Part shown: positions 7,501-52,302 of the stretch, in pieces
How the letters are laid out: each line of letters opens with the position of its first letter
Numbering within the stretch: the first letter of the stretch is position 1
Assembly (NCBI GenBank): GCA_905178155.1
Contig: CAJINV010000024.1
Location: 286,515-350,514, forward strand
Reading direction: 5' to 3'
Length of the DNA: 64,000 bases
From: Amoebophrya sp. A120
Taxonomy: Eukaryota; Protista; Dinoflagellata
The notes under the pieces: generated by a model
What the model was told of the DNA's origin: nothing
The model's database searches: none
The model's input: only the letters and a program-made list of their open reading frames with translations
Program-made: the position numbers and the translations under genes

Positions 7501-10500
7501 ATGATCCGCCGTACAGGGCCACGAGCGCGAAGATGACAGGAGGTCGGGGAAAGCCAAAACCAAAACGCCACGAAGTACCAGAGATCGATGCTGGTCGTGC
7601 AAGACCAATCGACAGGGAAGAGGACGCTGCCACACTGCTCGACGCGGAGGAGGAACAGCGCTTCCTCGAGGGAGAGGAGGACGAGCATGGTTCGGAGACC
7701 GAGCGTGATCATGCGCAAAACCAGAAGTATATGTCACAAATGGAAATATATCAGGCGCGCCTTTATAAAGAAAATCGAAATGGCCCGTCAAATTCACCCA
7801 CAAATGGCAATGCAAATAGCGCACAGATGAGCTACAGCAGAACACCACAAGCCAGAGATAACCGAGCAGACGGAGGTGCAGAAAAAAGTGGGCGCTCGGA
7901 GTCAGGTGGCCATGGCCAGGCTGCGGCTGGAACGACGAACAGATGCGAATCTACTTCGCAGAACGACGAGGAGGAGGAGGAGACCATGCTACAACGCAGT
8001 AGCCAGTCGGTGGCCTTCATCCCGTTCGGAGCGCGACTACAAGAACGAGGACAGCATCAACGACAGACACAGATAACCGAAGATGCTGCGGTCGTCGATA
8101 CAAAAACCGAAGCTGCAGCTGCTGCTTCTGAAAAAACCGCATCTGTCGAGGAAGTCGCGATCCCCATGGCGCGGGTCGGGTTTGCGGCGGACGTGGCGAC
8201 GAAAATCGCAAGGCTAATCGCCAAACACGCAGGTGAGCGGGAAAAGGACGGGGTGCTCAACTGGATCGGGAATGAAAGCCGCGACCAGGCAAATCCCCCG
8301 ACAACTGGAGATCATGGTCGGAGAGGTGCGGAAAAATATAGTCGTGGTGCGAAGGACGACAAGAGTTCGAAGAACGCGGAACACGAAGATCCGGAGGCGG
8401 GTGAGGCTGCGACCGGAGGTGCAGCTTTGCCTCGTGGTAGGAAGAACGACCCGATCGGGCAGGAGGACAACGCCTTTGGTACACCGGAGCAAGAAAATGA
8501 CCGCCGGGAGCACCACCACGGCGACGTAGTAGACCCCGAAAAATCATACTCTTCGTCCTTCCACTGCCTCAAAGGCCCGAACTGCCTGTTCCGTAATGTC
8601 TGCCTGAAGGGATTCACCTACGACTCTAGCATATACATTGCAAAAGTACTATGACTACCGTGCAACTTCGTGCGTGAATTGCAATACAAATTTCATTTCC
8701 AAATAAAAAGAAGAAACGCAAATTGTGATGCTGAGTCGCATCGGGCTACCAATCTGTCATGCATGATTGCAATTACTACGTAGGCGGTACTAGGAGTACT
8801 TTTGCACTGGATACACCAACCCACTCGACGATTTCCGATCCAGAATACGGGAGGTGCATTTCGAGTACTTTTTGCCCGAAGATGACACGACTTCCGCTGA
8901 AGTGGACGATGTATCCTGTGCAAAAGTATCGCACTCGTATAAATGCAATACAAATTTCCTCAGCATGAGAAATAAAATTTGTAATGCAGATTTTCGTTGG
9001 AAACAAGATTTGTAATGCAAGACTTGCATTTGTACGAGTACGATACTTTTGCAAAGGATACGATGACCACTCCCACGACGATTGGGAGACCCACAGCGAT
9101 GCGGATACACGGTACATTTTTCAAAATCTGTATCTGATGCCAAATTATCCAAACATCATTCCCAATCTCCGCCACCTGGTGGCGAAAGCGCGGTTTCACC
9201 GGGCGCGTGGTGCTCCCGGGAAGCGGCGGCTCCAAGAACGGGGCAAGAGGGCGCTAGGTTCAGGACGACATCCAGATGAAGTTGTGCATCCTCGCGGTGC
9301 TCTCGCCGATTCCTCGAAAAGCACTCCCAAAACCGCCGTCTTCGTGCAGCGTGCCGGCGGGTTCACACACAACGTCGGCCACGTGATTCTTGACGAGATT
9401 CTGACGGTGTTTCAGGCCATGCTGAAGCACGATAGAATCGGAAGCGACGATCGGGAGATCCAGATATCAAATGCAAAAATGTCTGGATGTCTAGCAACTT
9501 GTGTTGCTGATACTTGAATTGCAAACTTGCTGCTTGTACTGCATAACAGCATGAGAAATTTCGCGGGGCTTATTCCAAATTCATTCGTATTTAGCATGAC
9601 AAAGTACCATATTCCGCACGACAAAAAAACTGGCCAATGGTATTCATGCATTACAGATCTTTTTGTCCTTGAAGTCCTGCATCACAAATCCAGGTCCAGA
9701 CATATTTGCAGTGCATACCAGATTCTACTGCACGAAAAGCAGTCCATGAACATCAATGCGTTCGCGCAGCTGCTCGCGACCACGCCCGGTATTGTGAGGA
9801 AAAATGTCCCCACCCCAGAGTTGTCATGCAAGCCTGCATGCGAAAAACGTTTCTCATGCGGAGCCCCATGAGAAGCATTTTCTATTCGTCATTGGGAATT
9901 TGTGATGCTAGAATCATCATAGTATTGTGGATCTGTGATGCTTCTCCTGAATCAGCTAAACAGGATTACACTACGGAGACAAACTTGTCATGCGAAATAA
10001 CCAAATCTGGTGGATTTGTCTACGCTGATTTCGCATCTTGACTCTGGTGTGGGGACGTTTTTACTCAGGATACCCGGGAAGACTACTTCATCTACACCCG
10101 CAGGTGGTTTTACCGGCGCTTCTACCGCTGCTGGTGGAACTTCCAACGTTTTCGACTGGACGGACATCGATTTGACCACCGAAGTGGATTTTTCTGCACC
10201 CGCTTTGAAATCGTCGGAAATAAAAGTTCACCGTTGCTTTCCGGAGCTCATCCTCGGTTGGGCCCGGTTCCAGGGCTACTGGCACTTAGGGTTTGCCGAG
10301 CTGCAGCAGTACTTTCTGCTTCCAAGACACAGCATCATATGACAGTGCACAACTTCCCATCGTCCCCCTCATTTGTATAGCATGAACGCCAATACAAGCA
10401 TTAGCAAGAGTGCCGGCTTTGCATGACAACGTTTGCACTGGAGTGTAGTCCTATTTTGGCGGCTACCAGCAGAACTTGTCATGCATAAGAGTGCCAAGAG

Positions 10501-13328
10501 GAAAAGAGTGGATTGAGTATTTTGCATGAGAAATGAGGGGGAACGGGAGTTCTTGTGCACTGTCACACATCACCGCGGGCATCCAGAAGTACCAGGACCT
10601 GCTGAAATTCAAGGAGTACGTATCGTGAGGAAAAAACTGTGTAAGTGTAAATCTGTGATGCAGAACATGCAACAGAGTTACGCCTGTCATGCCAGACAGC
10701 CACGCAGTCCTCTTTTCATGTGTGTTTTCCCTAATCAACCACGCATGACAGGTTTTCTCTGTCATGTGGAGCAAATTTGTGATGCTGTCAGCCAAAGAAA
10801 GTTACACTAACACAGTTTTTTTCTTGGATATTACGTGTGGCGGAGGTTTGGGATTGCGAAGAGGGAGAACATATCCTGAGTAAAAACGTCTCCTCTCGAT
10901 TCCTTTCTGAAAATTCGAAATTTCTCTGTGCTTTAAATTTGGTCTTTTCCAGTACATAAACACCCCAGAGTTGTCATGCAAATCTACATGCTGAAAATGT
11001 TTCTCATGCGGAGCTCCATGAGAAGCATTTTCTAGTCGTGTTTTTCAATTTGTCATGCTCCAATCAGCATGGTAAGCTAGATCTGTGATGCTGCTGAGCT
11101 AGCTCAAACAGCACTACACTACGAATCCAAATTTGTCATGCAAAACAGCCAAAACTTGCGGATTTGTCTAGCCGGTTCCCCATCCTGCCTCTGGTGTGAG
11201 TACGTTTTTACTCAGGATAGAACAAAGAACGGGATTATGCCGGCGCGGGCGGGGTACTGGTTCCTGGTGCAGCATCTTCGACAAGAGCTAGTGCGCCCCC
11301 TACTTCCGTGCTGTACAACATTACCATCGTGCTGAAAAACCGGCATTCCGCCGAAAACTGCTGCGTCATGACCAACGCAGACCAACTGAAACGGTATTTG
11401 CTGCGAAGGTTCTTCAGGAGTAAGAGTTCAGGAGCCACCAGCACCGCTGCAGGACCAACTACATTCCGCGAGGACACGGAAAGAATGAAAGATGTTGCAC
11501 CTGTTCCTACGTCGCATGGCTTTCAAGTTGAAGAATTGTCTGGGCTGCAACTACAGCGCGCAAGCATCGACCAAGTGCTGCTGCTCAACTGGTCGGATTT
11601 GAAGGGCAGCTGGCAGAAGCAAGTGGAGGTTATGGCGTACACGGATATTCTGCTATCCTTCCCCGGCGCGGACGTCTGCAGCTCGGTGTTTATGCCCACA
11701 GTGAGTGGCTTTATTCTCCCCGATCGACTGCTGGGCTGGGCGCCAGAGGAAAAAGACACGCTCGAGCTGGTGCGGCAAGACGTCAAGCAGGAGAAGCGGA
11801 AGCGAGGTCTGAGCGAACAGAGCCACGAGGTGCTGCAAGTGGACGCCTTTGGAAAAATCGTCGTGAGCAGTAGCGGCGGCGGCGAGAATTCGCAAGGTCG
11901 TCGTAGTGCTCTGCATCAGAAGCTCAATCTCGAACAGCAGGTGAAGCTGTTTTACCAGCGCCGGTTTCACCGCTTTTTGAAGGTGACCGCGACCTCCAGT
12001 GCAGTTGAAGAGGAACAATTTGGGGAGGATAGTGGGCAGTTTCCTGCGGGTAGTCCAGGCGAGAGCGCAGGATCCCCCACTTCCAGCGTCGTCGACTACA
12101 TGCGGCAGCATTTGCAGTATCAAATGCAAATATGTCTGGGTCTGGAAGATTGCAACTTGTCATGCTAAGTCTGAATCAGGCAAAAGACTGTGTTGCATGA
12201 TTGCCAAAAGCTGTGCACTTTTGACCTAATCGAGAGGCAGTTTCTCATGCAGGATAAGCATTGGAAAGGTAAAGGTTATTTCGCAGAATCTGTCATGCTA
12301 TGTCCTGCATACCACACTTCATGGGTTATGGAAAATCTGCATCACAAATCTAACAATCTTCCAGACCCAGACACTTTTGCAATCCATATGCAGCAGCACG
12401 AGGTGAATTCCCACGGAATCTCGGCCAAGGGTTGGGAGGGCCTTGGCTTCATCGACATGGTCTTCACGCACCGGCTACCAAATGTAAAAATGTCTGGGTC
12501 TGGAAGAATGCAACTTGTCATGCTAAATCTGAAGCATCCATAAATGTGTGTTGCATGATAGTACCAAAAGTCGTCCAGTTTTGACCAAGTCGGGAGGGTG
12601 TTTCTCATGCAGGATGGGCATGAGAGATATAATCGCCCGGAATCTGTCATGCTAGGTCCTGCATTCCAGACCTCATGGGTCATGGAAAAGCTGCATGACA
12701 AATCGCGAATTCTTCCAGACCCAGACATTTTTACATTTGATACCGGCCCTACCTCAACATCAAGCTGATGCCCCAGTACGTGGCGGGCGTCACGTATGAA
12801 AGTGCACAACATCCTGTCCCCCTCATTTGTCATGCAAATTGCCAAATCCAAGCTGTGCATTTTGGCAGTGTCTGCATGACAAGTCCTGGTACTTAGCCCA
12901 AACAGCACTGCAATCCAGTGTGAATTTGTCATGCAAAACCGGCACTCTTGCTGATGCTTGTCTTGCCGTTCATGCTATACAAATGAGGGGGAGGGGGAGT
13001 TGTGCACTGTCATATCACGAACACCAGCGTGGCGCGGCCGACGTTCGTTTTGTCGCCGCGAAAATCGGTCTTCGAGCAGGTGCCCTCGCCGCGGGACCGG
13101 CACAGTACTGCGGAGTTCGACAACGTCATGTACCGGAAAGCCAACCCGTCCGCGGTGATTCCCCCGGAGTTTCCGCACGAGGAATTTTTCCGCTACGAAT
13201 CGGTCATCAACGGCAGCATCTTCTGGCCGAAGAACACGGTGATCCGAAATGTCCATCAGGGCGGCTTCCAGAAAATCGGCGACCTCGTGGAGAGTCTGCT
13301 GGACTACTTTCAGCGGATCAAGGGCTGA
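4518..13328 (+). CDS. Glycosyltransferase family 61 (DUF563)-like protein, 5' end unresolved, 12 inverted-repeat introns
   Basis: Removing each element + 5 nt gives one open frame: ...RPPNK|IRWFPG...LIRR|WRLDE...CLFRNVCL...HNVGHVILDEILTVF...EIQ|ILLHEK...RCFPELILG...QVEVMAYTDILLSFPGADVCSSVFMP...QRIKG*. Motifs resemble GT61; family assignment is by eye. Confidence 0.75.
4637..6522. mobile_element. Composite introner family C (1886 nt) carrying a captured antisense gene fragment
   Basis: Left TIR TATGAGTTGCAAAAGTATCGGCTACTAGTA, right TIR TACGAGTTGTCGATCCTTTTGCACTGCATA, perfect flanking DR AAGAT; extra internal right TIR ending 4834; 43-nt duplication 4715-4757 = 6438-6480. Confidence 0.8.
4835..6172 (-). 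pseudogene. Captured 5' fragment of an acidic/coiled-coil protein gene inside an intron
   Basis: GCCACCATGG start at 6172 (MAGDSVEQ...), frameshift near 5995-6025 into the E/K-rich ORF 4521..5993, truncated at an introner half at 4834. Confidence 0.65.
6998..7195. mobile_element. Introner family C
   Basis: TATGCAATGCAAAAGCATCGCAC...GTGCGATACTTTTGCACAGGATA; DR GCGGT. Confidence 0.9.
8632..8813. mobile_element. Introner family C (diverged)
   Basis: TATACATTGCAAAAGTACT...AGTACTTTTGCACTGGATA; flanks TAGCA/CACCA; +5 removal in frame. Confidence 0.85.
8912..9060. mobile_element. Introner family C
   Basis: TATCCTGTGCAAAAGTATCGCACTCGTA...TACGAGTACGATACTTTTGCAAAGGATA; DR CGATG. Confidence 0.92.
9465..9717. 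mobile_element. Introner family A
   Basis: TATCAAATGCAAAAATGTCTGGA...TCCAGACATATTTGCAGTGCATA; DR CCAGA. Confidence 0.92.
9790..10072. mobile_element. Introner family B
   Basis: TATTGTGAGGAAAAATGTCCCCACCCCAGAG...CTCTGGTGTGGGGACGTTTTTACTCAGGATA; DR CCCGG. Confidence 0.92.
10338..10567. mobile_element. Introner family D
   Basis: TATGACAGTGCACAAC...TTGTGCACTGTCACA; DR CATCA. Confidence 0.9.
10621..10830. mobile_element. Introner family B-like (diverged)
   Basis: TATCGTGAGGAAAAAACTGTGT...ACACAGTTTTTTTCTTGGATA; flanks GTACG/TTACG. Confidence 0.85.
10872..11219. mobile_element. Introner family B with ~70-nt insertion in left TIR
   Basis: TATCCTGAGTAAAAACGTC[insert]CACCCCAGAG...ACGTTTTTACTCAGGATA; DR GAACA. 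Confidence 0.9.
12118..12388. mobile_element. Introner family A
   Basis: TATCAAATGCAAATATGTCTGGGTCTGGAA...TTCCAGACCCAGACACTTTTGCAATCCATA; DR TGCAG. Confidence 0.92.
12476..12742. mobile_element. Introner family A
   Basis: TACCAAATGTAAAAATGTCTGGGTC...GACCCAGACATTTTTACATTTGATA; DR CCGGC. Confidence 0.92.
12795..13014. mobile_element. Introner family D (opposite orientation to 10338)
   Basis: TATGAAAGTGCACAAC...GTTGTGCACTGTCATA; DR TCACG. Confidence 0.92.
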
Positions 13329-14257: not shown

Positions 14258-16928
14258 ATGGCAACACCAGGTTCTGCGGATCATGCGCAGTCCTCGAGGC
14301 CGTTGGAGGTTTCTCCTGCGTCCGAACGGCAGATGTTGATCGAAGCTCGCAAAAAATTGCAAAAGCAGGTCACAGACATGGAGCAGCACGCGGAAAATCA
14401 GCGGGGCCGCTTCAACGCGTACCAGCAACTGCACGCGAAACGCCTCGACTGGCTGATATCAACTGTAAAAGTGTCTGGGTCTGGAAACTTGTGATGCTGG
14501 GTGGCGCATGATTGAAGCGCTTCCAATGGCAGCCAAGCATGACAAGTTTTTGAGAGGCCTTCTGATGCCTAGCATGCATGACAAATTGCGTTTTTGCATG
14601 ACAAAGAAAGCTTCTCTTTTGCTGCTTATGCAAGACAGATTTTCCAGGAATGCATGACACGCATTACAAGTTCCACTTTTCCAGACCCAGACATTTTTAC
14701 ATTTGATAGCTGACGGCGTTTTTCAAGACCGACATGGTGCTGCTCGACATATGGCACAACTGGAACGCGCAGTTCGACAAGATTGTTGGATTAGTGGTAG
14801 CCCTCGACAAGTCGTCGGAAGAACAACCGCAAGAACAGGCGGAAGAAGTAGTAGTACCAGACGAAGATAGGGCGTATTTGAATCAGATGACTGCAGGATC
14901 TTCTTCATCTGCAACAATGCGAACAAACCCACACGCGGCCAGTTTGATGTTCCGGCGTGAAGGTGGATATAATAAGAAGAACGTCTGCGATTTATTGCGG
15001 GGTAAAATACTGACCACTCCCCGGAAGATTTTCGCGGAGTTGCGGATGGGAATGGAAGAGTCGTTGCACCAATCCACGACACAGCAAGAACTTGGCGCAT
15101 CTTCAACTGCGGTCACGACCAAGACAGTAGACCGACTCTACCCCGCCGACAACATTTGGCGGCTCGACAACTGGCTGACCGTCGACGCCCCGGAGGCTTC
15201 GTCGAAGTTGCATTCGGCGATACAAAAAACCACCGACATTTGGCTCAAGGAAAAAGGTCCCGTGTTCTGGGAAAAGTGGACTGCGTTCCAGAAGGCTGCT
15301 CAGGGCCTTCTGGGCAAGGCCCGGGAGTTGCAAACTGCGGAACGCGCTCTGCTGGACGTCGAAGTGCGGGGCCGCAAGTACGCTGAAATTCTACAACTTC
15401 CAGAAGATGATCCCTACGAAGTGCAGCGCGCGCTCGAGAAGGCGCTCGGAGAGAAATCGCGAGCGCTGCGGGACGCGCAGTGGAAAAGTGACAAGCACAT
15501 CATGTTGCTCGAGGAGTCTTTGCAGCGGCGCGGCAAAGAGGTGGAAAAGTACGCTTTGTTGGAGGTTAACATGCAGTACGAACTGCAGGCCGCCGCCGCC
15601 AAGGTTTCGGCGTACGAGCAAGAATTACGGACGCACAGACGCAACGCTGAAGCCGTGCGACAACGCGACCTGGACGTGGAGGAGTTCGAGGTGACGAAGC
15701 TCCGGAAGTCAGCCTTGGAAGACGACCTAGCCCGGGAGAATGACCGGAAAAATGTGCTCGTGGACAAGTTGCACGACTCGGAGCAGGAGAAGAAAATGCT
15801 GGAGCAGCGGGTCGCCGAGTTAACACGAAAATTGGAGCGAAAAGTATGAAGTACAAATATCGATCTGGGTCTGGAAGATGGATGCAATAAACCTGTCATG
15901 CAGAATTTTTATGCGCGACGATGTCTGGAATTATGCAGGACGAAGCATGACAGACTCCGCGAGGTCTCCGTCTCTATCATGCCTAGTATCCTGCATGAGA
16001 AACTCCCTCTCATGTTGGTCAAAAAAAGGCAACCTTTGGTGATCACGCAAGATGACAGATTTTTGTGTGACCCACTACAGGACGCATACCAAGTTCCATC
16101 CATCCAGACCGAGACATATTTGCGATGCATAAAAAGCCAAGCTCGACGACGTTGACGCGCATTTGGAAAGCATAGGCTTCGGTCAGTGCGAAATCTGCTG
16201 TGACGCGTACGTGGCACAAGGTATGACGGTGGCACGTGGTCCAAACAAGTTGTAGCCTGCTGCGGTCCAACGCAAACGGATTAGATGGCTTTGTTGCATG
16301 ATTTTTGTTTTTTATGCAGATCTTCAGCACAGAATGAACTTTCAGTGTCAGCAATAACCACCTGGCATGTTGAATGAATGTAGGTAGCCAAAATCCGTTC
16401 GCAAAAGGCACTACAGCTTGTCACGAGTAATTTTTCCTCGGCACGACGCACGTGAACCAACGGCCGATGTGCTTCTCCTGCGGCCACGGAGCGTGTGCGA
16501 GCTGCGTGGACCTTCTGCGGGGGTGCGGTCGGGATCTGTGCCCAAAGTGCCGCGAGCCGGGGGTACTGCAGGATGCAGTCGTGAATTACGGACTGGAGGC
16601 CGCGCTAGAAACCCTGGGGCGGTGCGCCGTCCCTGCACCTCCGTCGCGCAGTGCCGAGTTGGCGACGCCGACCTTGCCCATGGGGCGTGGCCAGCTGCTA
16701 CGAACCTTTGCTCGGAGATTGTGTTGCCGACAGACGCTGAATGTTCTCGCCCTGATAGTGGGTTGGGTGTGGGACCATGCCTGTGCCTTATGGTGTTGTT
16801 TCTGGCTCGCTGCTGTTTCTGGCTCGTCAGCGATGTGTTGTTTCTGGCTCTCGGTGTTGTTTCTGGCTTTCGCTGAATTGTTTGCTTTAAGTACCCTGAC
16901 TATAATTCTTGAAGCGGTCACGGTTTAA
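14258..16928 (+). CDS. Coiled-coil + C3HC4 RING finger protein with hydrophobic C-terminus (putative E3 ligase), 3 introns
   Basis: Spliced frame MATPG...DWL|TAFFK...LERK|AKLDD...CEICCDAYVAQ|GTTHVNQRPMCFSCGHGACASC...CPKCR; third intron ~16221-16440 is a hairpin GT...CG intron. Confidence 0.8.
14457..14708. mobile_element. Introner family A
   Basis: TATCAACTGTAAAAGTGTCTGGGTC...GACCCAGACATTTTTACATTTGATA; DR GCTGA. Confidence 0.92.
15845..16131. mobile_element. Introner family A (diverged)
   Basis: TATGAAGTACAAATATCGATCTGGGTCTGGA...TCCAGACCGAGACATATTTGCGATGCATA; DR AAAAG. Confidence 0.9.
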
Positions 16929-22630: not shown

Positions 22631-22786
22631 TGCAGGGGTCCGACCAATCGGCCAAACGGATATATCTTTTCAAACGTATATTTTTTTCAAACGAATACTT
22701 TTGCGATATTTTCGCCAATTCCTTGCCTTTTTATGCTTTTGGTTTCTCTTTTTCTCTTTTTCTTTGGAAGTGCGGAGCCCGCGCGT

Positions 22787-35531: not shown

Positions 35532-38500
35532 ATGTACCAGGCGCACACCATATTACAGTGAAAAGTGTCCCCCACCCCCAAAGTGGCAAAAATTTGTGAT
35601 GCGAAGTTTCCAAATGAAAACTTTTTGTCATGCATGAAAGGAATATGAATCTTTCTGATACAGATTCTAGTGGTGTTTTGCATCGCTTGCATGACAAGCA
35701 CCGCTCTTGCTGGGATCTTTTGCAATACAAATTTTTGCTATTCACGATCGGAAATCTGTGATGCTGATAGATGCAAGAGGGCGAGTGTTTCATTTGGAAA
35801 GGTTTGCAATACAAATGCTTTCAAGTTTGGGGGTGGGGACATTTTTCATTGTGAAGATACACCAACTTTTCGAATCGCTACTCCACGAGCATCGCCCGCC
35901 TGATGCAAGGTGATAGTATCGAATGCGAACATGTCTGGGTCTGGAAACTTGTGATGCTGGTTGGCGTATCATGAGGAGGCCACAAGTGCTCGCTCAGCAT
36001 GACAAGTTTCTGAGGTTCTAGGTGTTGCCTATTCTGCATGACAACCTGCGTTTCTGCATGACAGAAAAATGGCGCTCTGGAAGAATCCTGCTATCGAATG
36101 CGAACATGTCTGGGTCTGGAAGAATGTTGGAGACACTCTGCATGCATTTGGTTATACTCTTCAAGACGGTCACGGTGTTGTTGTCGGTCCGGAATGAAGA
36201 ACTACGAATGCTTCTCCATGCCAACCCTGCATGGGAAGTGCCCTCTTCTGGAGACAAGAAGTGTGCGTCTTTTGCTAACTATAATGCAACAGAGATTTAT
36301 TTTGATCTTGCCTCCTGCTCCAGACTTATCCGCATCACAAGTTTCCTCGTATTTTTTCCAGACCCAGACACATTTGCAAGCCATAGACAGACTCGACGAG
36401 CAGCGCGGTTACAGCGAGAAGCGCGTTGCGAGGTCGGAGAAGGAGTTCCACGAGAGGATGCGGGCCAAGCACGGCGGTGCCACAAACTCCTACCCGGGGG
36501 CACCAGGAAACGAGATGTTGGACCCGGTGTATGCGGACACAGACCTGATTCCGCCGAAAATTTTCCATCTCCCCGCGGTATCAACTGTAAAAATGTCTGG
36601 GTCTGGAAGAATTCATGTTTGTCATGCTTGTCTGGCATGACTCTTAAATCTGTCATGCACGTTACCCAAGAGCTCCGCTTTTCTATGATGCAGAAGCGCA
36701 GTTTGTCATGCAGAATAGGCAACACCTAGGAGCTCAGAAGCTTGTCATGCTGCGCCAGCATTTGTAGCCTCATCATGAGACGCCACCCAGCATCACAAGT
36801 TCCCAGACCCAGAGACTTTTACTTTTGATACGCGGGTCCCGTCGACTGGGCCGATCTGGTAGTACAACAGGGGTGTGATTATTACAAGCGCCGACAGATC
36901 ATGGACGAGGGAGGAGCAGGAGACAATAGTTTGCACGACCTGGGGCTGCAAAATATCAAAGTACAACCAGCGGTGGAACAAGTGCAGGAAGCTGCTGCAT
37001 CATCTACTTCATCAACTTCGTCTACTACGCACTTAGGCATCAAGATCAATACGTCCGAGCAAGAAAAATCGACCGGTCAAGAAGGGCCACGGGGGAAGCA
37101 GATGGAGGACAGTCGCGAGGCAGCCGGTCCTGCGTTTCGTGTGGACGGCGAATTTTCATTGGATGCGGAGTTGGAAGAGCGCGTGCTGAGTGGGTATCAA
37201 ATGCAAATATGTTGTCTGGGTCCGGAAAGGTGAAACTTGTCATGCTGCTCTTGGATTCCAAAAATATCTGTATTGCCTGAGCAGCAAGAGGAATCTACCT
37301 TTTGTTATGTCAGCAGGGTATTTCTCAAGCGGGATCGGCATCAAAGAGCACTCAGAACATCTGTGATGCTAGCGAATACATCACAGACGTCACGGGTGGT
37401 CATGTAAAATCTGCATGACAAGTTGTAGCCTTCCAGACCCAGACATATTTGCACCGGATAGTGGGAAAGCCGACATGAGTCGGGAACTTTTCCAGCGCGG
37501 TCCGGTCGGGGAACGTTTCGCGCAAGAGCTGCCGGTATGCATTGCAAAAATGTCAGGAGTTTGTCATGCAGATTTTGCATGACCGCCCATGAGGTCTGTG
37601 ATGCATGCCCTCGCATCAGAGATTTTGCGAGGGCTTTCTGATGCTCATTCCGCATGAGAAATGATCTCTCCGCGTAGCACAAATTTTTACACCTCTTTTG
37701 TTGTTCATGCAATACAGATTTTATGCAGAGTCCAAAGGTAGCATCACAAGTTCCAACCTTCCAGACCAAGACATATTTGCAATGCATATCCGGAAGACGC
37801 TTTTGACGGACTGGTGGTGGGATTCCAGAACGGTCGGCCGGTGCATCGACGTCGTGTACTTCAGCGGGCAGCTATCAAAAGGAAAAATCCACCCTCCCAA
37901 GATCGAAAACGAAACTTGTAATGCTGTATTAATTTGAGTACACCAATCGACTTGTATTCCTAGAAGGCCAAGGGCCGCAGTTGTGGCCTCGTTTGCAAGC
38001 AATTTGTCATGCTGGTTGTCGCTTCCAGCTGTCTCCTGTCATGCTGAAGATGCAAGGCTTTGTTCCCACGCAGCCCAGTACTACAGTCCGCATCTTTAAT
38101 ATTCCCCTTCTGGCAGGACCAAGCGGATTTGTGGCCGCAAATCTGCATCACAGATTTGCGTTTTGATATGGGGACGAAGGGGCATTTTTCATAGTAACAG
38201 CATCCAGGTTTGGAAACCACCAGTACCAGGTATCATATGGAAAAACGTCCCCACCCCAGAGTTGTCACGCAGAATTGCATTGACGAGGACATTTGTGATG
38301 CGCACACCCACGGTAGCCATTTCCAGTCGTGTTTTGGAATTTGTGATGCTGTGAACAGGATAAGCATATGGATCTGGTGTGATGCGGCTGCACTTGCTAA
38401 CCTGCACTACACTACGGAATGCAATTTGTCATGCGTGACGTCCAAGGCTCCTAGGTTTGTGTTGCAAAATACCCATCTTGACTCTGGTGTGGGGACGTTT

Positions 38501-41500
38501 TTACTCAGGATACCAGGCCGCACTCGTGGGTATGTGTGGCAAAAGCATATCGCACCATTTGAAATCATTCGTCCATCTCATTTTTGCAAATTTGTCCTGC
38601 ACGACAGATGCAATTTTTTATAACGCTGCCTTCATTTTTTTAGTCCAGGGCTAGGAAAGAGATTTTTGTTTTTCATGTTGGAGCACTGGGATTTATGCGA
38701 CTGCGATCATGCTTTTGCATTGCATTGTAAACGCGTTCCAGAGATCGGGGGCGGACCGCGTTGTTTTTCCACCGGACGGTGTAGTTGACCGTGCAACACT
38801 CATCGCAAACAGCATCACAAACAGCCCCAGAAGTGGCACGACGACGACCACAGGAACGACGGCAGATGGTGAGACCAGGAAGAGCATGAATGCAAGAAGC
38901 CCAGGACGTAGTGGTTCTACACACCACGACGGCCCCCGTGAAAAGCAGCAGTTCCAACCGGCGGCGCGGAGTTGCACACAGGGTCGTCGTGCAGTGGATG
39001 TGAATGTTGATGGAGATAAGCAAGAACCAGTTCCACAGATCATGATGGACCACAGCAAAACATCAAACAAATCACCCGCTCAACTTCCTCCTCCACTCTC
39101 CAGCACCGTATGGAAATCCGCTTACTTCGCGGAGCAGACCGCGCGAACGGAAAAAATTACCGCGTCGTTCCGGAAACCCTACCCTATCAACTGCAAAAAT
39201 GTCTGGGTCTGGAAGAATTCAAGACTTGTCATGCAGGTTTTCCATGACGCGTGAGGTCTGTCATACATGACCCAGCATGACAGATTCTCCTCGAGCTCTA
39301 TCATGCCTCTTCTGCATGAGAAACTCCCTCTCAGCTTGGTCAAAAGTGGACAGCTTTTGGTAATCATGCAACACAGATCCTTGCACTATCCAGAATTAGC
39401 ATGACAAGTTGGATTCTTCCAGACCCAGACATATTTGCAATGCATATACCCACCGAACCACCCACGGCCGCCGGGTGTGACGCCCGAGGTTTTCAGAACT
39501 TTCTGCGACTTGGGGAGGATACGAGTAGAATTTAAAGACGCGATTTTTCCACGATATACCGGTTATTCACCGACGCGCACTCTCTTACAAGAGGTGATGC
39601 GGGGAGAAGAACACAAAAATGAGCCAGACAAGACCTCTATCAAATGCAAAAATGTCTGGGTCTGGAAGGGTGCAACTTGTGATGCTGCGTTTGGATTCCA
39701 AAAAAATCTGTATTGCATGAGCAGCAAGGGTATGAGTGTCTTTTTTCTACGGGAAGAGGACATTTGTCATGCGGAATAGGCATCCGCATCCAGAAGCCCT
39801 CAAAAAATCTCTGATGCTAGGGCATGCATCACAGACCACATGGCTCATGCAAAACTTGCATGACAACTCTCAGAATCTTCCAGACCCAAACATTTTCGCA
39901 CTTGATAACCTCTCCCGCAGCGGTCTTCCCGCCCGTGTGGAACAACGGCCGCTACACAACGGATGTGGCCGCGATAGGTGCAAAGAGGATGATCGGCGGT
40001 AATAAAACCACGACACATGATCAACATCAATTAGAACCGGGCGGAGCAACCAGCAGAAGTGTACGACAGGCCTCCACTTGTTCTTCTCAATCCAGGTTCA
40101 AGTGGCCAACCGGTATCGTCAGTCCGGAAAATGCGCAGGAACTTTACCGGGGACTCTTTCTTCAAGAGCCTGAATCTTCAGCAGGAGGCGTAGCAGGTTC
40201 TCCCGGAGGAGGTACAGCGCCAGCTATAATTGGCGATCTGGCTACTTCTCCCCGACGGTCCTCTTGGGCGGCAGTGCAACTCTCTGATGATGAGGAGGAG
40301 GAGGATACCAGCCCTGAGTCTTCATCTGCAGCTCGACGGCAATTCATTCCGGCGGAAACAAAGAATGCAATTGCAAGCCCATCAGCGACCCGCACCGACA
40401 GAGCCCCACTTCATATCTCAACGGAGAGCAAGAATCCCAAAACCTTGACGTGCCACATCACCGGCTCTTTCGGATTTTCCGGGAAAGAGTTCCAGTTAAA
40501 ATACCCGGGATTGCGTCTGGATGGAAGGAAAGGCCTCTCTATCCTGTGTAAAAACGTCCCAACCCTATAGTCAAGATTGGGATTTTGCAACACAAACCTC
40601 GGAGTTTTGGAAGTCGCGCATGACAAGTTGCACTCCGTAGTGTAGTGCAGGTTAGCAAGTGCAGCCGCATCACAGATCCATCTGCTGATCCTGTTCTCAG
40701 CATCACAAATTCCAAAACACGACTGGAAATCATGTCTACCATGGGCATGCGCATCACAAATGCCTTTGTCATTGCAAATCTGCATGGTAACTCTGGAGTG
40801 GGGACGTTTTTCCTCAGGATACTCTCGCTGCGGCGCATCAAGCGGGACATTGCGGTCCAGTTGTGTGGGCGTCCAGGGTACGCAGTGCAGAAGTGTCGTA
40901 CTCGTAAGGGGAAATCGCATTACAAATGAGCTCAGCAGGATGACAAATGGAATTTGTAATGCTGATTTAGCTCAAGAGTATGGTCTGCACCCGTCATGCA
41001 AAATTCCGCAATAATTAGAATTAGGATTAGTTACGAGTACGATATTTTTGCAACGCATACAGACGTCTTTTCGCATCTGCAAATTCTCGACATGAAAATC
41101 TACGACCCTGTTGCATCCTCGCCACCGTCGTCGCCGCCCCTTTCTCCAGCTGCCGGCGACTCGTTGGCGCCGGAGTTTTTGCTGATAAGACGGCAAGATG
41201 AAGCTGCAATGGAGTTGACAGAAAATACTTCTTCCCCAGGAGCCACGACCGATGGTGATGGGCTCGCGGACCACGACAAGACGAGATTAATAGAAACACC
41301 GGCTGCGAAGATGAAGCCAGTAGTTTTGCAAGCTTTTTTGTCCTCCGGGGCGGCAGTTAATCCTGGTTTCAGCCCACCGTTTCAGTTTCCAGTGCCGGAC
41401 GTGCGGGAAGTACAGGATAGTGGTGGCGACGAGGAGGATAGTTTGTCCGATCCTGCTGAAAGAGTTGTGCATCATGATGATCGTGAAACTAAGAACTCGT

Positions 41501-42856
41501 CCGGGGGGCCAGCAACTGCCCCCCACCAACCGCGAAGTAGAACACCGGCAGAGCTGCGACCCACCGTGGCTGCGCCCGCACCTTCCTCCGCGAAGCCAAA
41601 AGACGCTTGCGTCACGACCTTCGAAAAGGCGCTGGAAGCGAAGCAGGCACGACTGACGTTCTCCGTGAAGAAAGATGGGAGTGAACAAAAGAGTACTTCT
41701 GCTGGAGAGGGAGGACCAGAGCAAGCGCTTCCCCCGGATGAACACGAAATGCTACAAACAGTACCACGAAAGGAAGTAGAAGACCCCGCGCAAGAAAACG
41801 AAGACCTTCTGCTCCCGAGACGAGAGATCCACCTGCAACTGCAAGTCATCACGACTCAACGGCTGGAATTAACGCTGTTTGGCCGACGGGTTCCGGACCT
41901 GATCACCGTGTGTCTTGGCCTGGCTTCGGACTTTGGAATAGACCATGATTGTAATCTATGGATTGCAAAAGTGTCTGGGTCTGGAAGATAGCGAGATTTG
42001 TCATGCTAGTCTCGCATGACCAAAAAGTTTGTGATGCGTGTCCAAGAAGAGACCCTTTTGCCTGTCATGCAAAAACGCAGTTTGTCATGCGAAAAACGCA
42101 ACACAATGAAGCGCAGACGTTTCTCAACATGCTTGGCTGTGCATCACAGAGCATTTACTATTCCCAGCGCAGCATTACAAGTTTCAAGACCCAGACATAT
42201 TTGCATTTGATATAATCCGGGAAAGAAGATCAGGATGAAGAAGCCACAAGCACTGCGGCTGGAAGAGACGCGGGCAGCGCCGGCGGGAGGGGAAGAACAG
42301 AAACGAACGGAAGCAGAAGAAGCAGAAAACACGCGTGGTGGTCAACAGCATCTTGAACAACCACCACCACCGCCGCGGATACCACCACCGCAGCGCATTC
42401 GGAAAACCACCACCGCCGCGGATATTCTGGCGGCCTCCGGGAAGAAAGGGTTGTCCCCGCCTACAAGTAAAACAATTAGCGAGTTGCCGGCGGGGGTGAA
42501 GTATCCTGTGCAAAAGTATCGCACTCGTAAAAATGCAAGTCTTGCATTACAACTCTTCTTCTTAAGGTAAACCCGCATTACAAATTTTATTTCTCATGCT
42601 GAGGAAATTTGTAATGCATTTATACGAGTACGATACTTTTGCAGTTCATATCAAGGGGAAGAACTTCTACTGTGTTGAAGTGGACGAGGTGATGTGGTGC
42701 GAAATTCCACTGAATGGCGAATTTGCGGACCAGAGGTTCAGCAGTGCGGACGGGAGTAGCATCAACACGCGTTATGGGGTGCCGTTAGTTTTCGATGGGT
42801 TGACAGACCATCCGGGAGCGCGGAGTACGGAGAAGAAGAAGAAGATTCTGGCTTGA
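35532..42856 (+). CDS. Hypothetical protein interrupted by 14 introners (5' end uncertain)
   Basis: Continuous frame after +5 removal at all 14 sites: MYQAHT|NFS...QGD|RLDEQ...LPA|GPVDW...LSG|KADM...LP|EDAF...RA|ARFGNHQYQ|AAL|VNAF...YP|PNH...KTS|PAA...GLS|LRR...RP|DVF...CN|PGKK...GVK|GKNFY...KILA*. Confidence 0.8.
35551..35859. mobile_element. Introner family B (diverged)
   Basis: TATTACAGTGAAAAGTGTCCCCCACCCCC...GGGGGTGGGGACATTTTTCATTGTGAAGATA; DR CACCA. Confidence 0.88.
35917..36385. mobile_element. Introner family A with duplicated left TIR (35917 and 36092)
   Basis: TATCGAATGCGAACATGTCTGGGTCTGGAA twice, one right TIR ...GACACATTTGCAAGCCATA; outer flanks GATAG/GACAG. Confidence 0.85.
36579..36830. 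mobile_element. Introner family A
   Basis: TATCAACTGTAAAAATGTCTGGGTC...GACCCAGAGACTTTTACTTTTGATA; DR CGCGG. Confidence 0.92.
37195..37460. mobile_element. Introner family A
   Basis: TATCAAATGCAAATATG...CATATTTGCACCGGATA; DR GTGGG. Confidence 0.92.
37536..37788. mobile_element. Introner family A (opposite orientation to 37195)
   Basis: TATGCATTGCAAAAATGTC...GACATATTTGCAATGCATA; flanks GCCGG/TCCGG. Confidence 0.9.
37873..38199. mobile_element. Eroded introner, family B-like
   Basis: TATCAAAAGGAAAAATCC...GGCATTTTTCATAGTAACA; flanks GCAGC/GCATC. Confidence 0.75.
38231..38512. mobile_element. Introner family B
   Basis: TATCATATGGAAAAACGTCCCCACCCCAGAG...GGGGACGTTTTTACTCAGGATA; DR CCAGG. Confidence 0.92.
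38531..38726. mobile_element. Eroded introner, family C-like
   Basis: TATGTGTGGCAAAAGCATATCGCA...TGCGATCATGCTTTTGCATTGCATT; flanks GTGGG/GTAAA. Confidence 0.75.
39185..39446. mobile_element. Introner family A
   Basis: TATCAACTGCAAAAATGTCTGGGTC...GACCCAGACATATTTGCAATGCATA; DR TACCC. Confidence 0.92.
39638..39907. mobile_element. Introner family A
   Basis: TATCAAATGCAAAAATGTCTGGG...CCCAAACATTTTCGCACTTGATA; DR ACCTC. Confidence 0.92.
40540..40821. mobile_element. Introner family B (opposite orientation to 38231)
   Basis: TATCCTGTGTAAAAACGTCCC...GGGACGTTTTTCCTCAGGATA; DR CTCTC. Confidence 0.92.
40879..41059. mobile_element. Introner family C (diverged)
   Basis: TACGCAGTGCAGAAGTGTCGTACTCGTAA...TTACGAGTACGATATTTTTGCAACGCATA; flanks CAGGG/CAGAC. 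Confidence 0.85.
41957..42212. mobile_element. Introner family A
   Basis: TATGGATTGCAAAAGTGTCTGGGTC...GACCCAGACATATTTGCATTTGATA; DR TAATC. Confidence 0.92.
42502..42650. mobile_element. Introner family C (opposite orientation to 8912)
   Basis: TATCCTGTGCAAAAGTATCGCACTCGTA...TACGAGTACGATACTTTTGCAGTTCATA; flanks TGAAG/TCAAG. Confidence 0.92.
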
Positions 42857-43888
42857 TGGATTCAATTGGCATGACAAACTGCCATAGTTTCAACCTGATC
42901 GGATTAATGATGATGTTTTTGACGTTCATTGGGATCCAGATTTACGCATGACAAACCAGCACCCGTCTGGGTACGCTTTTGCATTCTGATTGCACTTTTT
43001 CTTTTTCTATTCGTGCGTCTAATTGCAACTGCATGACAATAAACTTGGACGACAGCCAGAATTTTTCTACTTGATACAAGAAGCTTCTCTGGAGGAGCAC
43101 GACGCAGTTATCATGTGAAAGGAAGGGCGACGCACAACACGGTTGTCATGCGGAAACGAGATTGTCAGTTATACGAAATAATCTCGGTGATGTGTCTCCG
43201 CATGACAAATCTTATGTGCTATTGCTGCTTTGTTTCGACTTCATAATGGTCGTGGTGCACACGGACGGTACGGAGTCGCATATCAAAAACAAAAATAACT
43301 GGGTCCTGATCGAAGTCGCAATGTTGTCATGCTAGGTCAAGGTGAAAACAGAAAGTTGTCGTGCATGGACACCGAATGTTCTTCATTTTTCTAATGCATA
43401 ATCCGTATTCATCAAAATCAGACTCAGAGGCTGAGCGTGCATGCCAAACCACCTTACTGGTCGCGCAGAAGGCGCTGCGTCAAAAACATGCGTCTTCCCC
43501 CCAGAAGGATCCAGACCAGTTCTCACTGCATATCACGAGTGGTGGTGCAGCTCATGAGGGTGAGGCGGGATGCGTTCAGCCGGACTACGCAGGTCGGCGC
43601 GTTTTAGAAGAACTTTTTCTTCCGACACAACAGTGTCCAAGCTGCAATGGCTTTACACCAGTGAACAAAACTACCTTTTCGAACCTAGCGAAGGTGTAGA
43701 AGGAGAACGCAATTGAGTCCAAGCTGTCCATGATCTCGAGAGCCAACTCATGAAATCATCTTTTGAAAAATTGAAGTACGTCCTCGCAACCGGCGGAAAC
43801 TTTGTGACGAAGAGACCAGGTGGGGCACGCAACCGTGCTTCTACGCATATAGACTTCTGCGTCATTGTGAGTACGTACGTGGTGCTGA

Positions 43889-46415: not shown

Positions 46416-46849
46416 CGAGGACGAGAAGAGAGCTACAGATAAACACTGCGGCAGCGACCAAAAGCGGAAGGGATCGCTCATCATTACCTCATCCTGATAT
46501 CAGCATTGCGGAACTTCTGCAAACGGCTCTTCCGCCACTCTTGGGCCCTGAGGTCGCGGCGGGAAAGAGGACATCTTTCAAGAAGCTGCAAGTTTGTGAC
46601 GCGGAAGCGGATCGACGAGCCACAGCCAGAGTATTTTTCTCTTTGGGAAGAACAAGACGAGCTTCATGTGTGGCGCGGTACTCCGGCACGCCCCCCCCCG
46701 CAGGTGAGACTCGGGTCTGTTTGTGCGCAGCAAGTTTTTCCCGTCCCGTTCCGGGCGTGAGACTGAATCTGCGCGCTTGGTGCCCGGTGCTTCCGCCTTA
46801 ATGTCGAAAGAAAGCGCCGCAGCCTCAGCGTCGCTTTTTGCCCTGCTGC

Positions 46850-50336: not shown

Positions 50337-52302
50337 ATGGCGGAGCGGCCTCCCAACGGGGAAGAACAGCACAGTTCTGGACGCGAGTTGTCCGGCTCCG
50401 CGGCAGCCCGACTGTTTCTGAAAGTCCACAAACGACAGCAACTCAAGGACGCGGAGACCGCGGCGCGGGCGAGTGGAACAGCAGCGGCGGATGGGGAATG
50501 CGTTGTCGCTGCAAGAAGTTGCTTTGGAACTGCATCGCCCGACATCAATCCACTGGGCAAGTCGCATGAGGAGCAAGACCAGTCCGTCATGTTTCACCAG
50601 CAAGAACAGTTGCAAACGGAACTGCAGTACAACCCGCCGTTGCGGCGGGAAAACGCTTCGTCGAAGACCAGCTCGTCCGGGAGCCGCGGCGATACCCTGA
50701 GCACAGGAACAGCGCAAGAGAATACCGGCCCGTCCAACAGTAAGGAAAACAGTACCTCCGAAGATACTGCTGGCGGGACTGATGCTCTTGTCCTCGACGA
50801 AGGCCATTTTCAAGTGGCAAACGTTCCGAGAAACGACCAGACGGCGCCCTTGCTACGGTTGCACGCTGCTGGAGCTCCTGCTGGATCCGAGCGGGTTCGC
50901 TCCGAGCTCCTGCTGGACCACAAGTTTACTCCCTCCTCCTCATCTTCCTCTTCATCGAGCGGTGTTCGCGGAGGCGGCGTGGAGGTATCATGTGTCGCTG
51001 GCTGCGAAGTATCAAATGCAAATATGACTGGGTCTGGAAACTTGTAATGCTGGGTTGGGAATAGCAATAGAAATAGTGAATGCTAGCTCTGTAATGCACA
51101 GCCAAGCGTGAGAAATATGAATACATGCGCTGCTTAGTGTTGCGTTTTTCGCAAGACAAGCTGTGTTTTTGCATGACAAGCACAAGGGTCTCTTCTTGGA
51201 CACGCATCACAAACTGTTCAGTCATGCCAAACAAGCACGACAAACCTTGGAGCCTTCCAGATCCAGACGTATTTGCATTTGATACGAAGTCGTTCCGGAG
51301 GGGGATCCTGGTCTACTCCCGGTTAGCAACGAGCTGCCACCAATACGGGTCGTGGAGAAGCGGCACTCGCAACAGCCGGCAAGCGGCAGCAAATCCGCAA
51401 TGCAGCAGGATTATGGCGATGATAAGGCGGCCGCGGCTTCGGGCGGGTTTTTTCCAGCACAACTCGCGGAAGGCAACAAGTTTTGGCAGCAAAATTCGTC
51501 CACGCCGAGATTTTCGGCGCTTGCGGGAAAGCCGTCTACGGACGCACAGAACGATCCCCAGGTCATGGGCATACGCGAGTTTATCGGCGAAGTCGACAAC
51601 GATAGCGAGGGGGGAAAGGATGGTATAGCGTTACTGGGTTTTTTTGATGATAACAATCACTGTTGTTGTAAAAGTTCGATGCTTGTGGAAGTGAAGATGC
51701 CGAGACCTCTTGTCTTCACTCACCATCGCAAGCTGAAGTGGCGCTTCGCGTTTGGTCATGCGGAATTCGTTCTGTGCGCTGAGTGCCCAGTTTGTAATGC
51801 TGATAGTTAGCGACTCAAAAATGAGTCTATCTGGACTCGTTTTTGCAGTGTCCGCATTATGTGCAGTTTGTAATGCTGACACGGACTCAAAAAAACGAAT
51901 TCGAGTCGCGTTGGACTCGTGTCTGCGTAGGTTGGAAGTTGTGTCGCACTCACTTTTGACTTGCTGTACCAATGGAGCGAGTTGAAGGGGCAACATGATC
52001 TCGCACTTGATCACATATCACAATCATGGTTCTCAGGTTCCGCTGTAGTTGCCCTTGCTCAGGAACACCAGCGGCCGGCTTTGCCCCCAAGCGGTCCAGA
52101 GTGCTACCCGCCGCAAAATGCGCTGCAGCATAACGGAATCGACGAACAGCAGAGCAGTGGCAGCAGTAGCATACCGACGCTATCGCGTCGCCCCGCTTCG
52201 GTACCTCGTCAAAACATGCCAACTCCCTGCAGCGCCATGCGTACTGTATTTGAGCTAGAGCTTCGCTGTGTGATGAGAAATCTACTTCGAGCGCCGGCAT
52301 GA
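50337..52302 (+). CDS. Hypothetical low-complexity protein; one introner plus a probable second intron ~51624-51930
   Basis: MAERPP...GCE|VVPEGD...GKDG|SCVALTFDLLYQW...; second junction inferred from GATGG/GTTGG flanks. Confidence 0.6.
51010..51284. mobile_element. Introner family A (opposite orientation to 41957)
   Basis: TATCAAATGCAAATATGACTGGG...CCAGACGTATTTGCATTTGATA; DR CGAAG. Confidence 0.92.

What the first reader, a model, noticed from the sequence alone, without database searches (positions are those of the whole stretch)
8912..51284. The same introners are excisable in either orientation: structure-based splicing or DNA-level excision?
Seen: reverse-complement pairs lie inside + strand genes: 8912-9060 vs 42502-42650 (both 149 nt), 38231-38512 vs 40540-40821 (both 282 nt), 10338 vs 12795, 37195 vs 37536, 41957 vs 51010. 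Both orientations follow the +5 rule. Established: spliceosomal and group I/II introns are strand-specific. Inference: removal relies on symmetric information (terminal stem plus mirrored motifs). Candidates are an endonuclease/ligase-type RNA reaction, a modified spliceosome, or precise DNA excision analogous to ciliate IES removal, which also leaves one pointer repeat.
Basis: partly seen in the sequence, partly recalled or inferred. Interest (0 to 1): 0.88.

Follow-up and report, generated by a model that had tools for sequence, protein, structure and literature searches.

The report
Two-way transposon introns with hidden code
In a marine parasite, small hairpin-shaped jumping elements sit inside genes in either direction, stay in the DNA and are missing from what look like its transcripts at one fixed cut position that needs no GT or AG, most likely because a relaxed spliceosome reads a U near the start and branches from an A seven bases before the end, a testable rule for introns whose removal has been an open question.

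Summary
Observation confirmed. The window is Amoebophrya sp. A120, and the elements are its published introners (TAT-N7-AAA inverted ends, 5-bp target duplication). All five named pairs are whole-element inversions in + strand genes. RNA-like contigs (one sample) skip length+5 in both orientations (13 of 13 elements), while DNA-like contigs keep the elements; DNA excision is not supported. New here: (1) orientation is about 50:50 in 9 of 9 families (229 elements); (2) mismatched duplications fix the cut, so intron = N-TAT...ATA-NNNN, with no GT or AG enrichment; (3) the symmetric ends are read asymmetrically: intron +2 T never varies (0 of 298, mirror position 12) and the A at -7 almost never does (1, mirror position 8; 2x2 p=3.5e-5), against what pairing alone predicts. 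Best explanation (0.6): a U1-less spliceosome, hairpin-assisted, branching at -7 and counting seven bases to the 3' cut. Euglenid-type non-spliceosomal removal remains open (0.25). Two-way introners are known elsewhere but use GT/GC/GA-AG sites. No lariat data.

The parts
8912..9060 (.). introner, 149-nt family, orientation A; inferred intron 8911-9064 (GT..AT)
   Evidence: joint 8905|9060, skip 154, in 4 of 4 RNA-like runs
42502..42650 (.). introner, 149-nt family, opposite to 8912; duplication TGAAG/TCAAG
   Evidence: X3 piece ends at 42498 keeping left-copy position 2, 485 nt of the contig follow; joined in annotated protein P0007; the joint itself was not displayed
38231..38512 (.). introner, 282-nt family
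   Evidence: X3 contig skips 1349 = 271+258+332+287+201 (predicted and observed spliced length both 3043)
40540..40821 (.). introner, 282-nt family, opposite to 38231
   Evidence: X3 contig skips 473 = 287+186
10338..10567 (.). introner; 3' end reads ACA instead of ATA
   Evidence: joint 10332|10568, skip 235, 4 of 4 runs
12795..13014 (.). introner, opposite to 10338, same transcript contig
   Evidence: joint 12789|13015, skip 225, 4 of 4 runs
37195..37460 (.). introner, 263-nt family
   Evidence: within the 1349 skip; P0007
37536..37788 (.). introner, opposite to 37195
   Evidence: within the 1349 skip; P0007
41957..42212 (.). introner
   Evidence: X3 record positions 2941/2942 join 41951 to 42213, skip 261
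51010..51284 (.). introner, opposite to 41957
40879..41059 (.). introner with duplication CAGGG/CAGAC: fixes the cut after position 4
   Evidence: X3 piece starts at 41064
38531..38726 (.). introner with duplication GTGGG/GTAAA (2 of 5): fixes the cut after position 4; whole element inside one DNA contig
   Evidence: X3 piece starts at 38731; X1 contig 38487-39210; only k=4 fits P0007
8632..8813 (.). introner with duplication TAGCA/CACCA (cut at or after position 3)
   Evidence: joint 8629|8817
6998..7195 (.). introner, 149-nt family
   Evidence: joint, skip 203
9465..9717 (.). introner
   Evidence: joint, skip 258
9790..10072 (.). introner
   Evidence: joint, skip 288
10621..10830 (.). introner whose two ends are 1 nt out of pairing register
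   Evidence: joint, skip 215
10872..11219 (.). introner
   Evidence: joint, skip 353
12118..12388 (.). introner, 263-nt family
   Evidence: joint, skip 276
12476..12742 (.). introner, 5' end TAC; opposite to 39185
   Evidence: joint, skip 272
14457..14708 (.). introner
   Evidence: joint, skip 257, X5 and X6 only
15845..16131 (.). introner
   Evidence: joint, skip 292, X5 and X6 only
32623..32912 (.). introner, 282-nt family, opposite to 40540
   Evidence: X3 joins 32619 to 32915, skip 295
35551..35856 (.). introner; annotated 3' cut lies 3 nt before the perfect-looking duplication and keeps A at -7
   Evidence: annotation only
35917..36385 (.). introner with an internal second left end at 36092; opposite to 36579
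36579..36830 (.). introner
   Evidence: X3 piece starts at 36831
37873..38199 (.). introner; 3' end ACA
   Evidence: within the 1349 skip; k of 4 or more by P0007
39185..39446 (.). introner
   Evidence: X3 skip 542 = 267+275
39638..39907 (.). introner, opposite to 37536 and 39185
   Evidence: same skip
53085..55163 (+). five further elements in a kinase gene (53085-53355, 53585-53832, 54345-54504 with 1 of 5 duplication, 54582-54794, decayed 54914-55163)
   Evidence: all fit k=4 in P0006
6523..13652 (+). host gene A, 11 introners, 1379-codon ORF after removal
35532..43604 (+). host gene B = annotated A120 protein P0007 (1199 aa)
50337..55662 (+). host gene C = annotated A120 kinase P0006 (1010 aa)

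Best explanation
These are Amoebophrya A120 introners, small transposon-like elements with inverted ends and a 5-bp duplication that lie in genes in both directions, stay in DNA-like contigs and are absent at one fixed register from RNA-like contigs, and they are most likely removed from pre-mRNA by a relaxed spliceosome that is predicted to branch from the A seven bases before the 3' cut. SHOWN: both orientations are skipped at length+5; exon keeps positions 1-4 of the left duplication and position 5 of the right, so the intron reads N-TAT...ATA-NNNN; first base and last four bases are unconstrained; +2 T and -7 A are nearly invariant while their mirror positions vary. INFERRED: a DNA transposase (not found) inserts elements at random orientation; because each end reads TAT inwards and ATA outwards, either orientation offers N-U-A-U at the 5' site and A-U-A-N4 at the 3' site; the end-to-end hairpin brings the sites together, perhaps standing in for the U1 snRNA that was not found in this organism; U6/U5/Prp8 would read +2 U and +3 purine; the -7 A would attack to form a lariat; the 3' site would be counted off at 7 nt with no AG check.
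For: RNA-like joints for 13 of 13 elements, including the opposite pair 10338/12795 in one contig; sums and pieces for 10 more. Register: exact k=4 at 40879 and 38531; k>=3, >=2, >=2, >=1 at 8632, 32623, 42502, 10621; k=4 fits 19 of 20 elements in annotated proteins and the 20th once its end is set by end alignment. 40879 (k=4) and 42502 (k>=2) are opposite members of one family, so the register follows the transcript, not the element. Polarity in 298 oriented elements: T at +2 deviates 0 times vs 12 at its mirror (p=0.0005); A at -7 deviates once vs 8 (p=0.039); 2x2 p=3.5e-5; loci alone p=0.0012. Tolerated changes break pairs (A.C, C.A) while wobble-keeping A>G at +3 and -7 occur once each. 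No G.U excess over A.C in end positions 1-20 (162:164). All nine 'predominant' A120 motifs in Table S4 of PMC7789003 have T second. U2, U4, U5, U6 and nearly all spliceosomal proteins are present and U1 was not detected. Precedent: Giardia 5' site VTATGTT, invariant branch-to-3' distance, long-range pairing (PMC6679479); Fritillaria introners need the U2 spliceosome.
Against: No lariat, branch or knock-down data exist here. No AG (16 of 196 vs background 6.9%) or GT (63 of 196 vs 30%) enrichment, so the usual first/last-base contact cannot be conserved. Bases just upstream of -7 show little polarity that would suggest U2 pairing (positions 5-7 about equal at both ends; only position 4 differs, p=0.0016). 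One real exception has G at -7 (L061). Strong hairpins form in most elements (14 of 16 with z of -2.9 or lower), some decayed introns are still predicted to pair end to end, and positions 21-30 show a G.U excess (109:74, p=0.012, one of several tests), all of which suit a structure-led machine too. The RNA label of X3-X6 is a guess, they are one sample, and contigs give no strand. Strand of the 264 locus elements comes from my codon model, not from RNA. Annotated proteins are not independent of RNA data.
Confidence: 0.6

Rival explanations
1. A separate, non-spliceosomal RNA machine (nuclease plus ligase, or an unknown RNP, as proposed for euglenid nonconventional introns) docks on the end-to-end hairpin and cuts 1 nt outside it on the 5' side and 4 nt outside on the 3' side; +2 U and -7 A would be its recognition bases.
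For: Hairpins in both orientations; no GT or AG; fixed stagger; U1 not detected. Euglena has a similar offset code, N3-CDG...CHG-N5-6, and circular products are reported (PMC12501133; PMC11282704).
Against: The invariant bases (+2 U, +3 purine, an A at fixed distance from the 3' end) are those a spliceosome uses. No pairing signal in positions 1-20; positions 4-7 pair less than shuffled (275 vs 305; explained by left/right end types). 10621 is cut by its ATA although its stem is 1 nt out of register. Some GT-AG introns share the -7 A (2 of 3 seen).
Confidence: 0.25
2. Precise DNA excision in a transcribed stage, like ciliate IES removal, leaving one pointer copy.
For: Elements look like DNA transposons; element-less junctions could not be read off directly in the DNA run because only 15 of 1371 joints were shown; no stage-resolved DNA was tested.
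Against: X1 has flat depth 25-30 over intergenic bins and its contigs cross 10 exon/element borders with 31 or more bases on each side at depth 23.8-28.2, one holding a whole element. The element-less contigs behave as transcripts: zero depth on 13714-14050, ends at 13595-13652, the next gene present in X5/X6 but not X3/X4. Removal works with 2 of 5 (38531, RNA) and 1 of 5 (54345, annotation) pointer matches. Register and end constraints follow transcription direction. Without a separate germline nucleus (recalled for dinoflagellates) excised elements would be lost from progeny.
Confidence: 0.03
3. The two orientations are an illusion: host genes lie on different strands, or only the interior flips between fixed ends.
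For: Contigs give no strand; 8912 and 42502 share the same 5' 28-mer although their interiors are opposite.
Against: Opposite members share one + strand ORF and one contig. End variants track the element's own left/right end (p to 5e-13), not the host end. Same-locus, same-family pairs: 20 same, 29 opposite.
Confidence: 0.02
4. Ordinary GT-AG splicing that recruits sites from the duplication, as in Polarella or Aureococcus, or self-splicing as a group II-like RNA.
For: G at the first intron base in 18 of 33 window elements; a bulged A 7-8 nt from the 3' end is a group II feature (recalled).
Against: The G excess did not replicate (63 of 196); only 7 of 196 are GT-AG; no Rfam match; interiors are unrelated between families and work in both directions.
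Confidence: 0.05

Closest known systems
Amoebophrya A120 introner elements (Farhat et al. 2021, PMC7789003; also PMC12130899)
   Same: Same organism, inverted ends TAT + 7 nt + AAA, 3-5 nt direct repeats, hairpins, RNA-supported non-canonical introns.
   Different: In the text I read, border position is called variable or unknown with no clear signature; orientation, a fixed 4|1 register, +2 U / -7 A polarity and branch points are not mentioned. Its figures (Fig. 3, S19-S25 logos) were not visible to me and may show part of this.
Two-orientation introners of Polarella glacialis and Aureococcus anophagefferens (10.1101/2020.10.14.339549, passages; Huff 2016 not read)
   Same: DNA-transposon-derived introns made in either orientation, splice site inside the duplication.
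   Different: They recruit G[TCA] and AG sites, show orientation bias and several registers; here no GT/AG need, no significant bias, one register.
Fritillaria borealis non-canonical introners (10.1101/2025.08.15.670264 abstract and passages; Henriet 2019 not read)
   Same: MITE-derived, non-GT/AG, removed by the U2 spliceosome.
   Different: Preferred ends (AG-AC, AG-AT) and U1 retained; here the last four bases and first base are free.
Euglenid nonconventional introns (PMC12501133, PMC11282704)
   Same: Inverted ends, hairpin, cuts at a fixed offset outside the stem with the longer overhang on the 3' side, likely MITE origin.
   Different: CAG/CTG motif, 3 and 5-6 nt spacers, purine at exon start, circular non-lariat products; here TAT/ATA, 1 and 4 nt, no exon preference, product unknown.
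Giardia/Trichomonas spliceosomal introns (PMC6679479, passages)
   Same: 5' site VTATGTT with free first base, fixed branch-to-3' distance (branch A at -8 by my count of the quoted motif), long-range pairing.
   Different: Keep AG and a CTRAC branch box; few and ancient, not mobile.
Ciliate IES excision (recalled)
   Same: One copy of a short flanking repeat is left.
   Different: Acts on DNA in a somatic nucleus and depends on boundary or pointer repeats; here DNA keeps the elements and mismatched repeats work.

Membership tests
Amoebophrya A120 introners | organism is A120 | tested here: met
   99-100% to three proteins named Amoebophrya sp. A120
Amoebophrya A120 introners | inverted ends TAT-N7-AAA | tested here: met
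   vs section 11 of PMC7789003
Amoebophrya A120 introners | short direct repeat at the border; repeated families; absent from transcripts | tested here: met
MITE / TIR DNA transposon | TIR, constant-length TSD, high copy, random orientation | tested here: met
   229 of 313 perfect 5-bp; 97 same vs 96 opposite nearest neighbours; summed depth to 2.5e5 vs about 27 unique
MITE / TIR DNA transposon | cognate transposase | tested here: inconclusive
   none among three long candidates; no Pfam or Atlas hit for the 1.9-kb element's ORF; whole genome not held
U2 spliceosomal intron | GT/GC 5' and AG 3' dinucleotides | tested here: not met
   7 of 196 GT-AG; neither enriched
U2 spliceosomal intron | invariant +2 U, purine at +3 | tested here: met
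   0 and 1 (A>G) deviations in 298
U2 spliceosomal intron | branch adenosine | tested here: inconclusive
   A at -7 in 297 of 298 by sequence; no U2-type box; function untested
U2 spliceosomal intron | lariat product and snRNP dependence | not testable with these tools
   raw RNA runs X9 and X10 laid only 7 and 4 reads
Euglenid nonconventional intron | N3-CDG...CHG-N5-6|R signature | tested here: not met
   ends are N-TAT...ATA-N4 with no purine preference at exon start
Euglenid nonconventional intron | end-to-end hairpin | tested here: met
   (prediction)
Euglenid nonconventional intron | circular, non-lariat product | not testable with these tools
   no suitable reads
Ciliate-type IES | element-less form in DNA | tested here: inconclusive
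   DNA-like contigs keep elements at single-copy depth; rare or stage-specific forms not excluded, joint table swamped
Ciliate-type IES | removal depends on matching pointer repeats | tested here: not met
   38531 (2 of 5) skipped in X3; 54345 (1 of 5) joined in P0006
Group I/II intron | conserved ribozyme fold | tested here: not met
   0 Rfam matches at gathering score; interiors invertible

The most novel reading that the evidence does not exclude
Amoebophrya runs a second, non-spliceosomal splicing machine that excises any hairpin bounded by N-UA and A-N6, in either orientation and scarlessly, converging on the euglenid system: a universal RNA-level antidote to a transposon invasion.
Probability: 0.2. 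Interest if true: 0.9.

Novelty: new variant of a known kind. Interest (0 to 1): 0.62.

Why it matters
How Amoebophrya removes tens of thousands of non-GT-AG introns without a detectable U1 snRNA was left open in 2021. A one-line rule (N|UA...A-N6|, either orientation) names the base to look at in lariat sequencing, lets annotators place borders that aligners scramble within the duplication, and explains why this transposon can fill genes at little cost: every insertion, in either direction and at any target, becomes a scarless intron. If spliceosomal, it shows exon ligation with no AG and no first/last-base contact at genome scale; if not, it is a second splicing machine.

Tried and rejected
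Whole genome not held. The DNA joint table was swamped (15 of 1371 shown), so absence of element-less DNA junctions was not read directly. G enrichment at the first intron base (18 of 33 in the window) did not replicate (63 of 196) and was dropped. A 'fixed ends, flipped interior' idea was rejected. G.U test gave no signal at positions 1-20. Strand-biased mutation as cause of the polarity was considered: sense A>G occurs 8, 1 and 1 times at -5, -7 and +3 and sense T>C 0, 6 and 4 times at +2, +4 and -6, so it does not fit. Rows dropped: 46 nested of 359, 107 of 313 without a confident strand, 10 of 206 with duplication under 3 of 5, 80 of 345 unoriented and one false call in L030; the second caller made 4 calls in 408 kb of reversed control sequence. 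No match in viral contigs. No transposase found. First frame test for 35551 was out of frame and was redone. The protein-to-genome walk stopped at a short exon of P0007 (15 of 16 introns fit; chance of a fit per intron is roughly 20-30% given 3-10 allowed registers). No snRNA sequence text in the supplement. One earlier scan note (GT-AT mobile introns, another genome) did not bear on this.
Full report
Identity. Three window exons match proteins named Amoebophrya sp. A120 at 99-100%. The elements have 5-bp duplications and inverted ends whose profile is TAT, seven looser bases, AAA, the A120 introner signature in section 11 of PMC7789003. So the elements are known. That paper (read: passages, sections 10, 11, 16, supplement part 3 and legends; figures not visible) reports no U1 snRNA, leaves the mechanism open and calls the border position unknown. 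'Lariat' and 'excision' have 0 occurrences in its main text, and 'orientation' and 'branch' appear only in other contexts in the passages shown.

Observation. All five pairs align far better as reverse complements, and with ends trimmed score 109-290 against a shuffled maximum of 25. Removing length+5 opens ORFs of 1379, 495, 1039 and 1188 codons on +; other offsets and the - strand do not. An exact-match scan of metagenome contigs returned 145 distinct loci (770 kb) with the same families and no exon overlap with the window among the longest hits. There 229 of 313 un-nested elements have a perfect 5-bp duplication. With host strand called by a codon model trained on window ORFs (206 of 313 confident; 41 of 42 multi-call loci unanimous), 9 of 9 families with four or more members hold both orientations, none significantly biased; nearest neighbours are 97 same, 96 opposite (229 elements). 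End variants follow the element's own left or right end, so whole elements are inverted.

RNA or DNA. On 6300-16400, four RNA-like runs (one sample, label a guess) give 14 joint rows: 13 skip exactly length+5 for the 13 elements there (11 in all four runs, 2 in X5 and X6 only) and 1 is a repeat artefact; record coordinates leave no letters between. The opposite pair 10338/12795 is removed from one contig. These contigs end at 13595-13652, leave 13714-14050 at zero depth, and the next gene appears in two runs only, as transcripts would. On 32000-43500, X3 pieces give skips of 295, 1349, 542, 473 and 261, each the sum of length+5 terms (3043 predicted and observed). In the same call X1 is flat at 25-30 over intergenic DNA and its contigs cross 10 exon/element borders with 31 or more bases each side. 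Its joint table was swamped (15 of 1371 shown), so a rare element-less DNA form is not excluded directly. Of the ten named elements, 8912, 10338, 12795 and 41957 have direct joints, 37195, 37536, 38231 and 40540 are shown by sums, 42502 by a piece end plus annotation, and 51010 by ORF and annotation only.

Register. Where the two duplication copies differ, the product shows the cut. 40879 (CAGGG/CAGAC) and 38531 (GTGGG/GTAAA) both put it exactly after position 4; four other RNA cases are compatible. In annotated proteins P0006 and P0007, k=4 fits 19 of 20 elements and is the only value that fits all; 35551 fits once its right end is placed by end alignment. The intron is therefore N-TAT...ATA-NNNN. 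40879 and 42502 are opposite members of one family, and 42502 keeps left position 2, so the register is not mirrored with the element. Under this register GT is 63 of 196 (background 0.30) and AG 16 of 196 (0.069): no enrichment. Table S4 of PMC7789003 lists nine predominant A120 motifs, all with T second.

Polarity. Using callers blind to the terminal three bases, deviations from TAT split by host end: in 298 elements, position 1 deviates 0 times at the 5' end and 12 at the 3' end, position 2 once (A>G) and 5 times, position 3 eight times and once (2x2 p=3.5e-5; loci alone p=0.0012). In intron terms +2 U, +3 purine and -7 A are held, and +4, -5 and -6 are freer. Pair-breaking changes are tolerated and wobble-keeping ones at the held positions are rare; G.U vs A.C is 162:164 over positions 1-20. 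Both exceptions were checked and are real. Against a pure sequence reading: most elements fold into strong hairpins in either direction, decayed introns at 25186, 54913 and 42825 are still predicted to pair end to end, and positions 21-30 show a modest G.U excess. Structure and base identity probably both count.

Mechanism. Shown: two-way insertion, removal from RNA-like contigs, fixed register, free terminal bases, polar constraint. Inferred: transposase-driven insertion (no transposase found); hairpin-assisted pairing of the sites; spliceosomal catalysis with the -7 A as branch and a counted 3' site. The held bases are those a spliceosome uses (established knowledge), the organism keeps U2, U4, U5, U6 and nearly all proteins, and Giardia offers a precedent for a free first base, TAT at +2 to +4, a fixed branch distance and long-range pairing, though with AG (PMC6679479 passages). 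I put this at 0.6, a euglenid-like separate machine at 0.25, DNA excision at 0.03.

Comparison and novelty. Two-orientation introners are reported for Polarella and Aureococcus but with recruited G[TCA]/AG sites (10.1101/2020.10.14.339549 passages). Fritillaria shows a U2 spliceosome handling non-canonical introners (10.1101/2025.08.15.670264 abstract and passages; its supplements not seen). Euglena has an offset hairpin code with unknown machinery (PMC12501133 abstract and passages; PMC11282704 section 6). PMC12130899 and PMC9860276 (passages) list A120 introners or handle opposite orientation in methods, without this rule in the passages seen. Eight full-text searches found no paper stating orientation independence, the 4|1 register or a -7 A for Amoebophrya; subscription papers are not covered and the 2021 logos could show part of it. 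Huff 2016, Henriet 2019 and Guminska 2021 were seen only as cited; IES and group II features are recalled. Verdict: known elements, a newly inferred and directly testable splicing code.

Noticed in passing
window 4637-6522: A 1886-nt composite element with a perfect AAGAT duplication: a full 149-nt-family copy (4637-4834) at the left, a right half (about 6419-6522) at the right, and a K/E-rich - strand ORF of about 460 codons between. RNA-like contigs join 6523 to something upstream, so it is probably spliced whole. No Pfam or Atlas hit.
   Followed up: partly
window 35551-35859: A 3-nt shift at the right end gives two in-frame candidate 3' sites; the annotation uses the upstream one, which keeps the T-run at -15 to -17 and A at -7, not the perfect-looking duplication.
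   Followed up: partly
window 25186-25446, 52201-52431, 42825-43080, 43280-43536: Decayed or non-repeated introns in annotated proteins also fit N-TAY...ATR-N4, hinting that the rule is general for A120 non-canonical introns.
   Followed up: partly
inside most elements: A 9-nt motif (TTGTSATGC and its complement) occurs about twice per element, pointing inwards near each end (131 vs 4 and 1 vs 120 in outer fifths): likely transposase binding sites.
   Followed up: partly
window 35917-36385: A second identical left end at 36092 inside the element: internal duplication or nested insertion.
   Followed up: no
window 751-1078, 1101-1409: Elements or remnants upstream of any called gene; splicing status unknown.
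   Followed up: no
window 20100-22650, 44680-48740, 59618-60199, 63650-64000, 4005-4319: GC-rich dispersed repeats, duplicated 140-295 nt segments and tandem arrays of 74-95 nt period.
   Followed up: no
window 16388-16600 and 18930-19050: Short RING-like cysteine motifs downstream of two coiled-coil genes, seen by eye; possibly their last exons.
   Followed up: no
runs X9, X10 on window 36579, 42572: A few raw RNA reads carry introner ends joined to other flanks, with none on exons: a related strain, or low parasite share.
   Followed up: no
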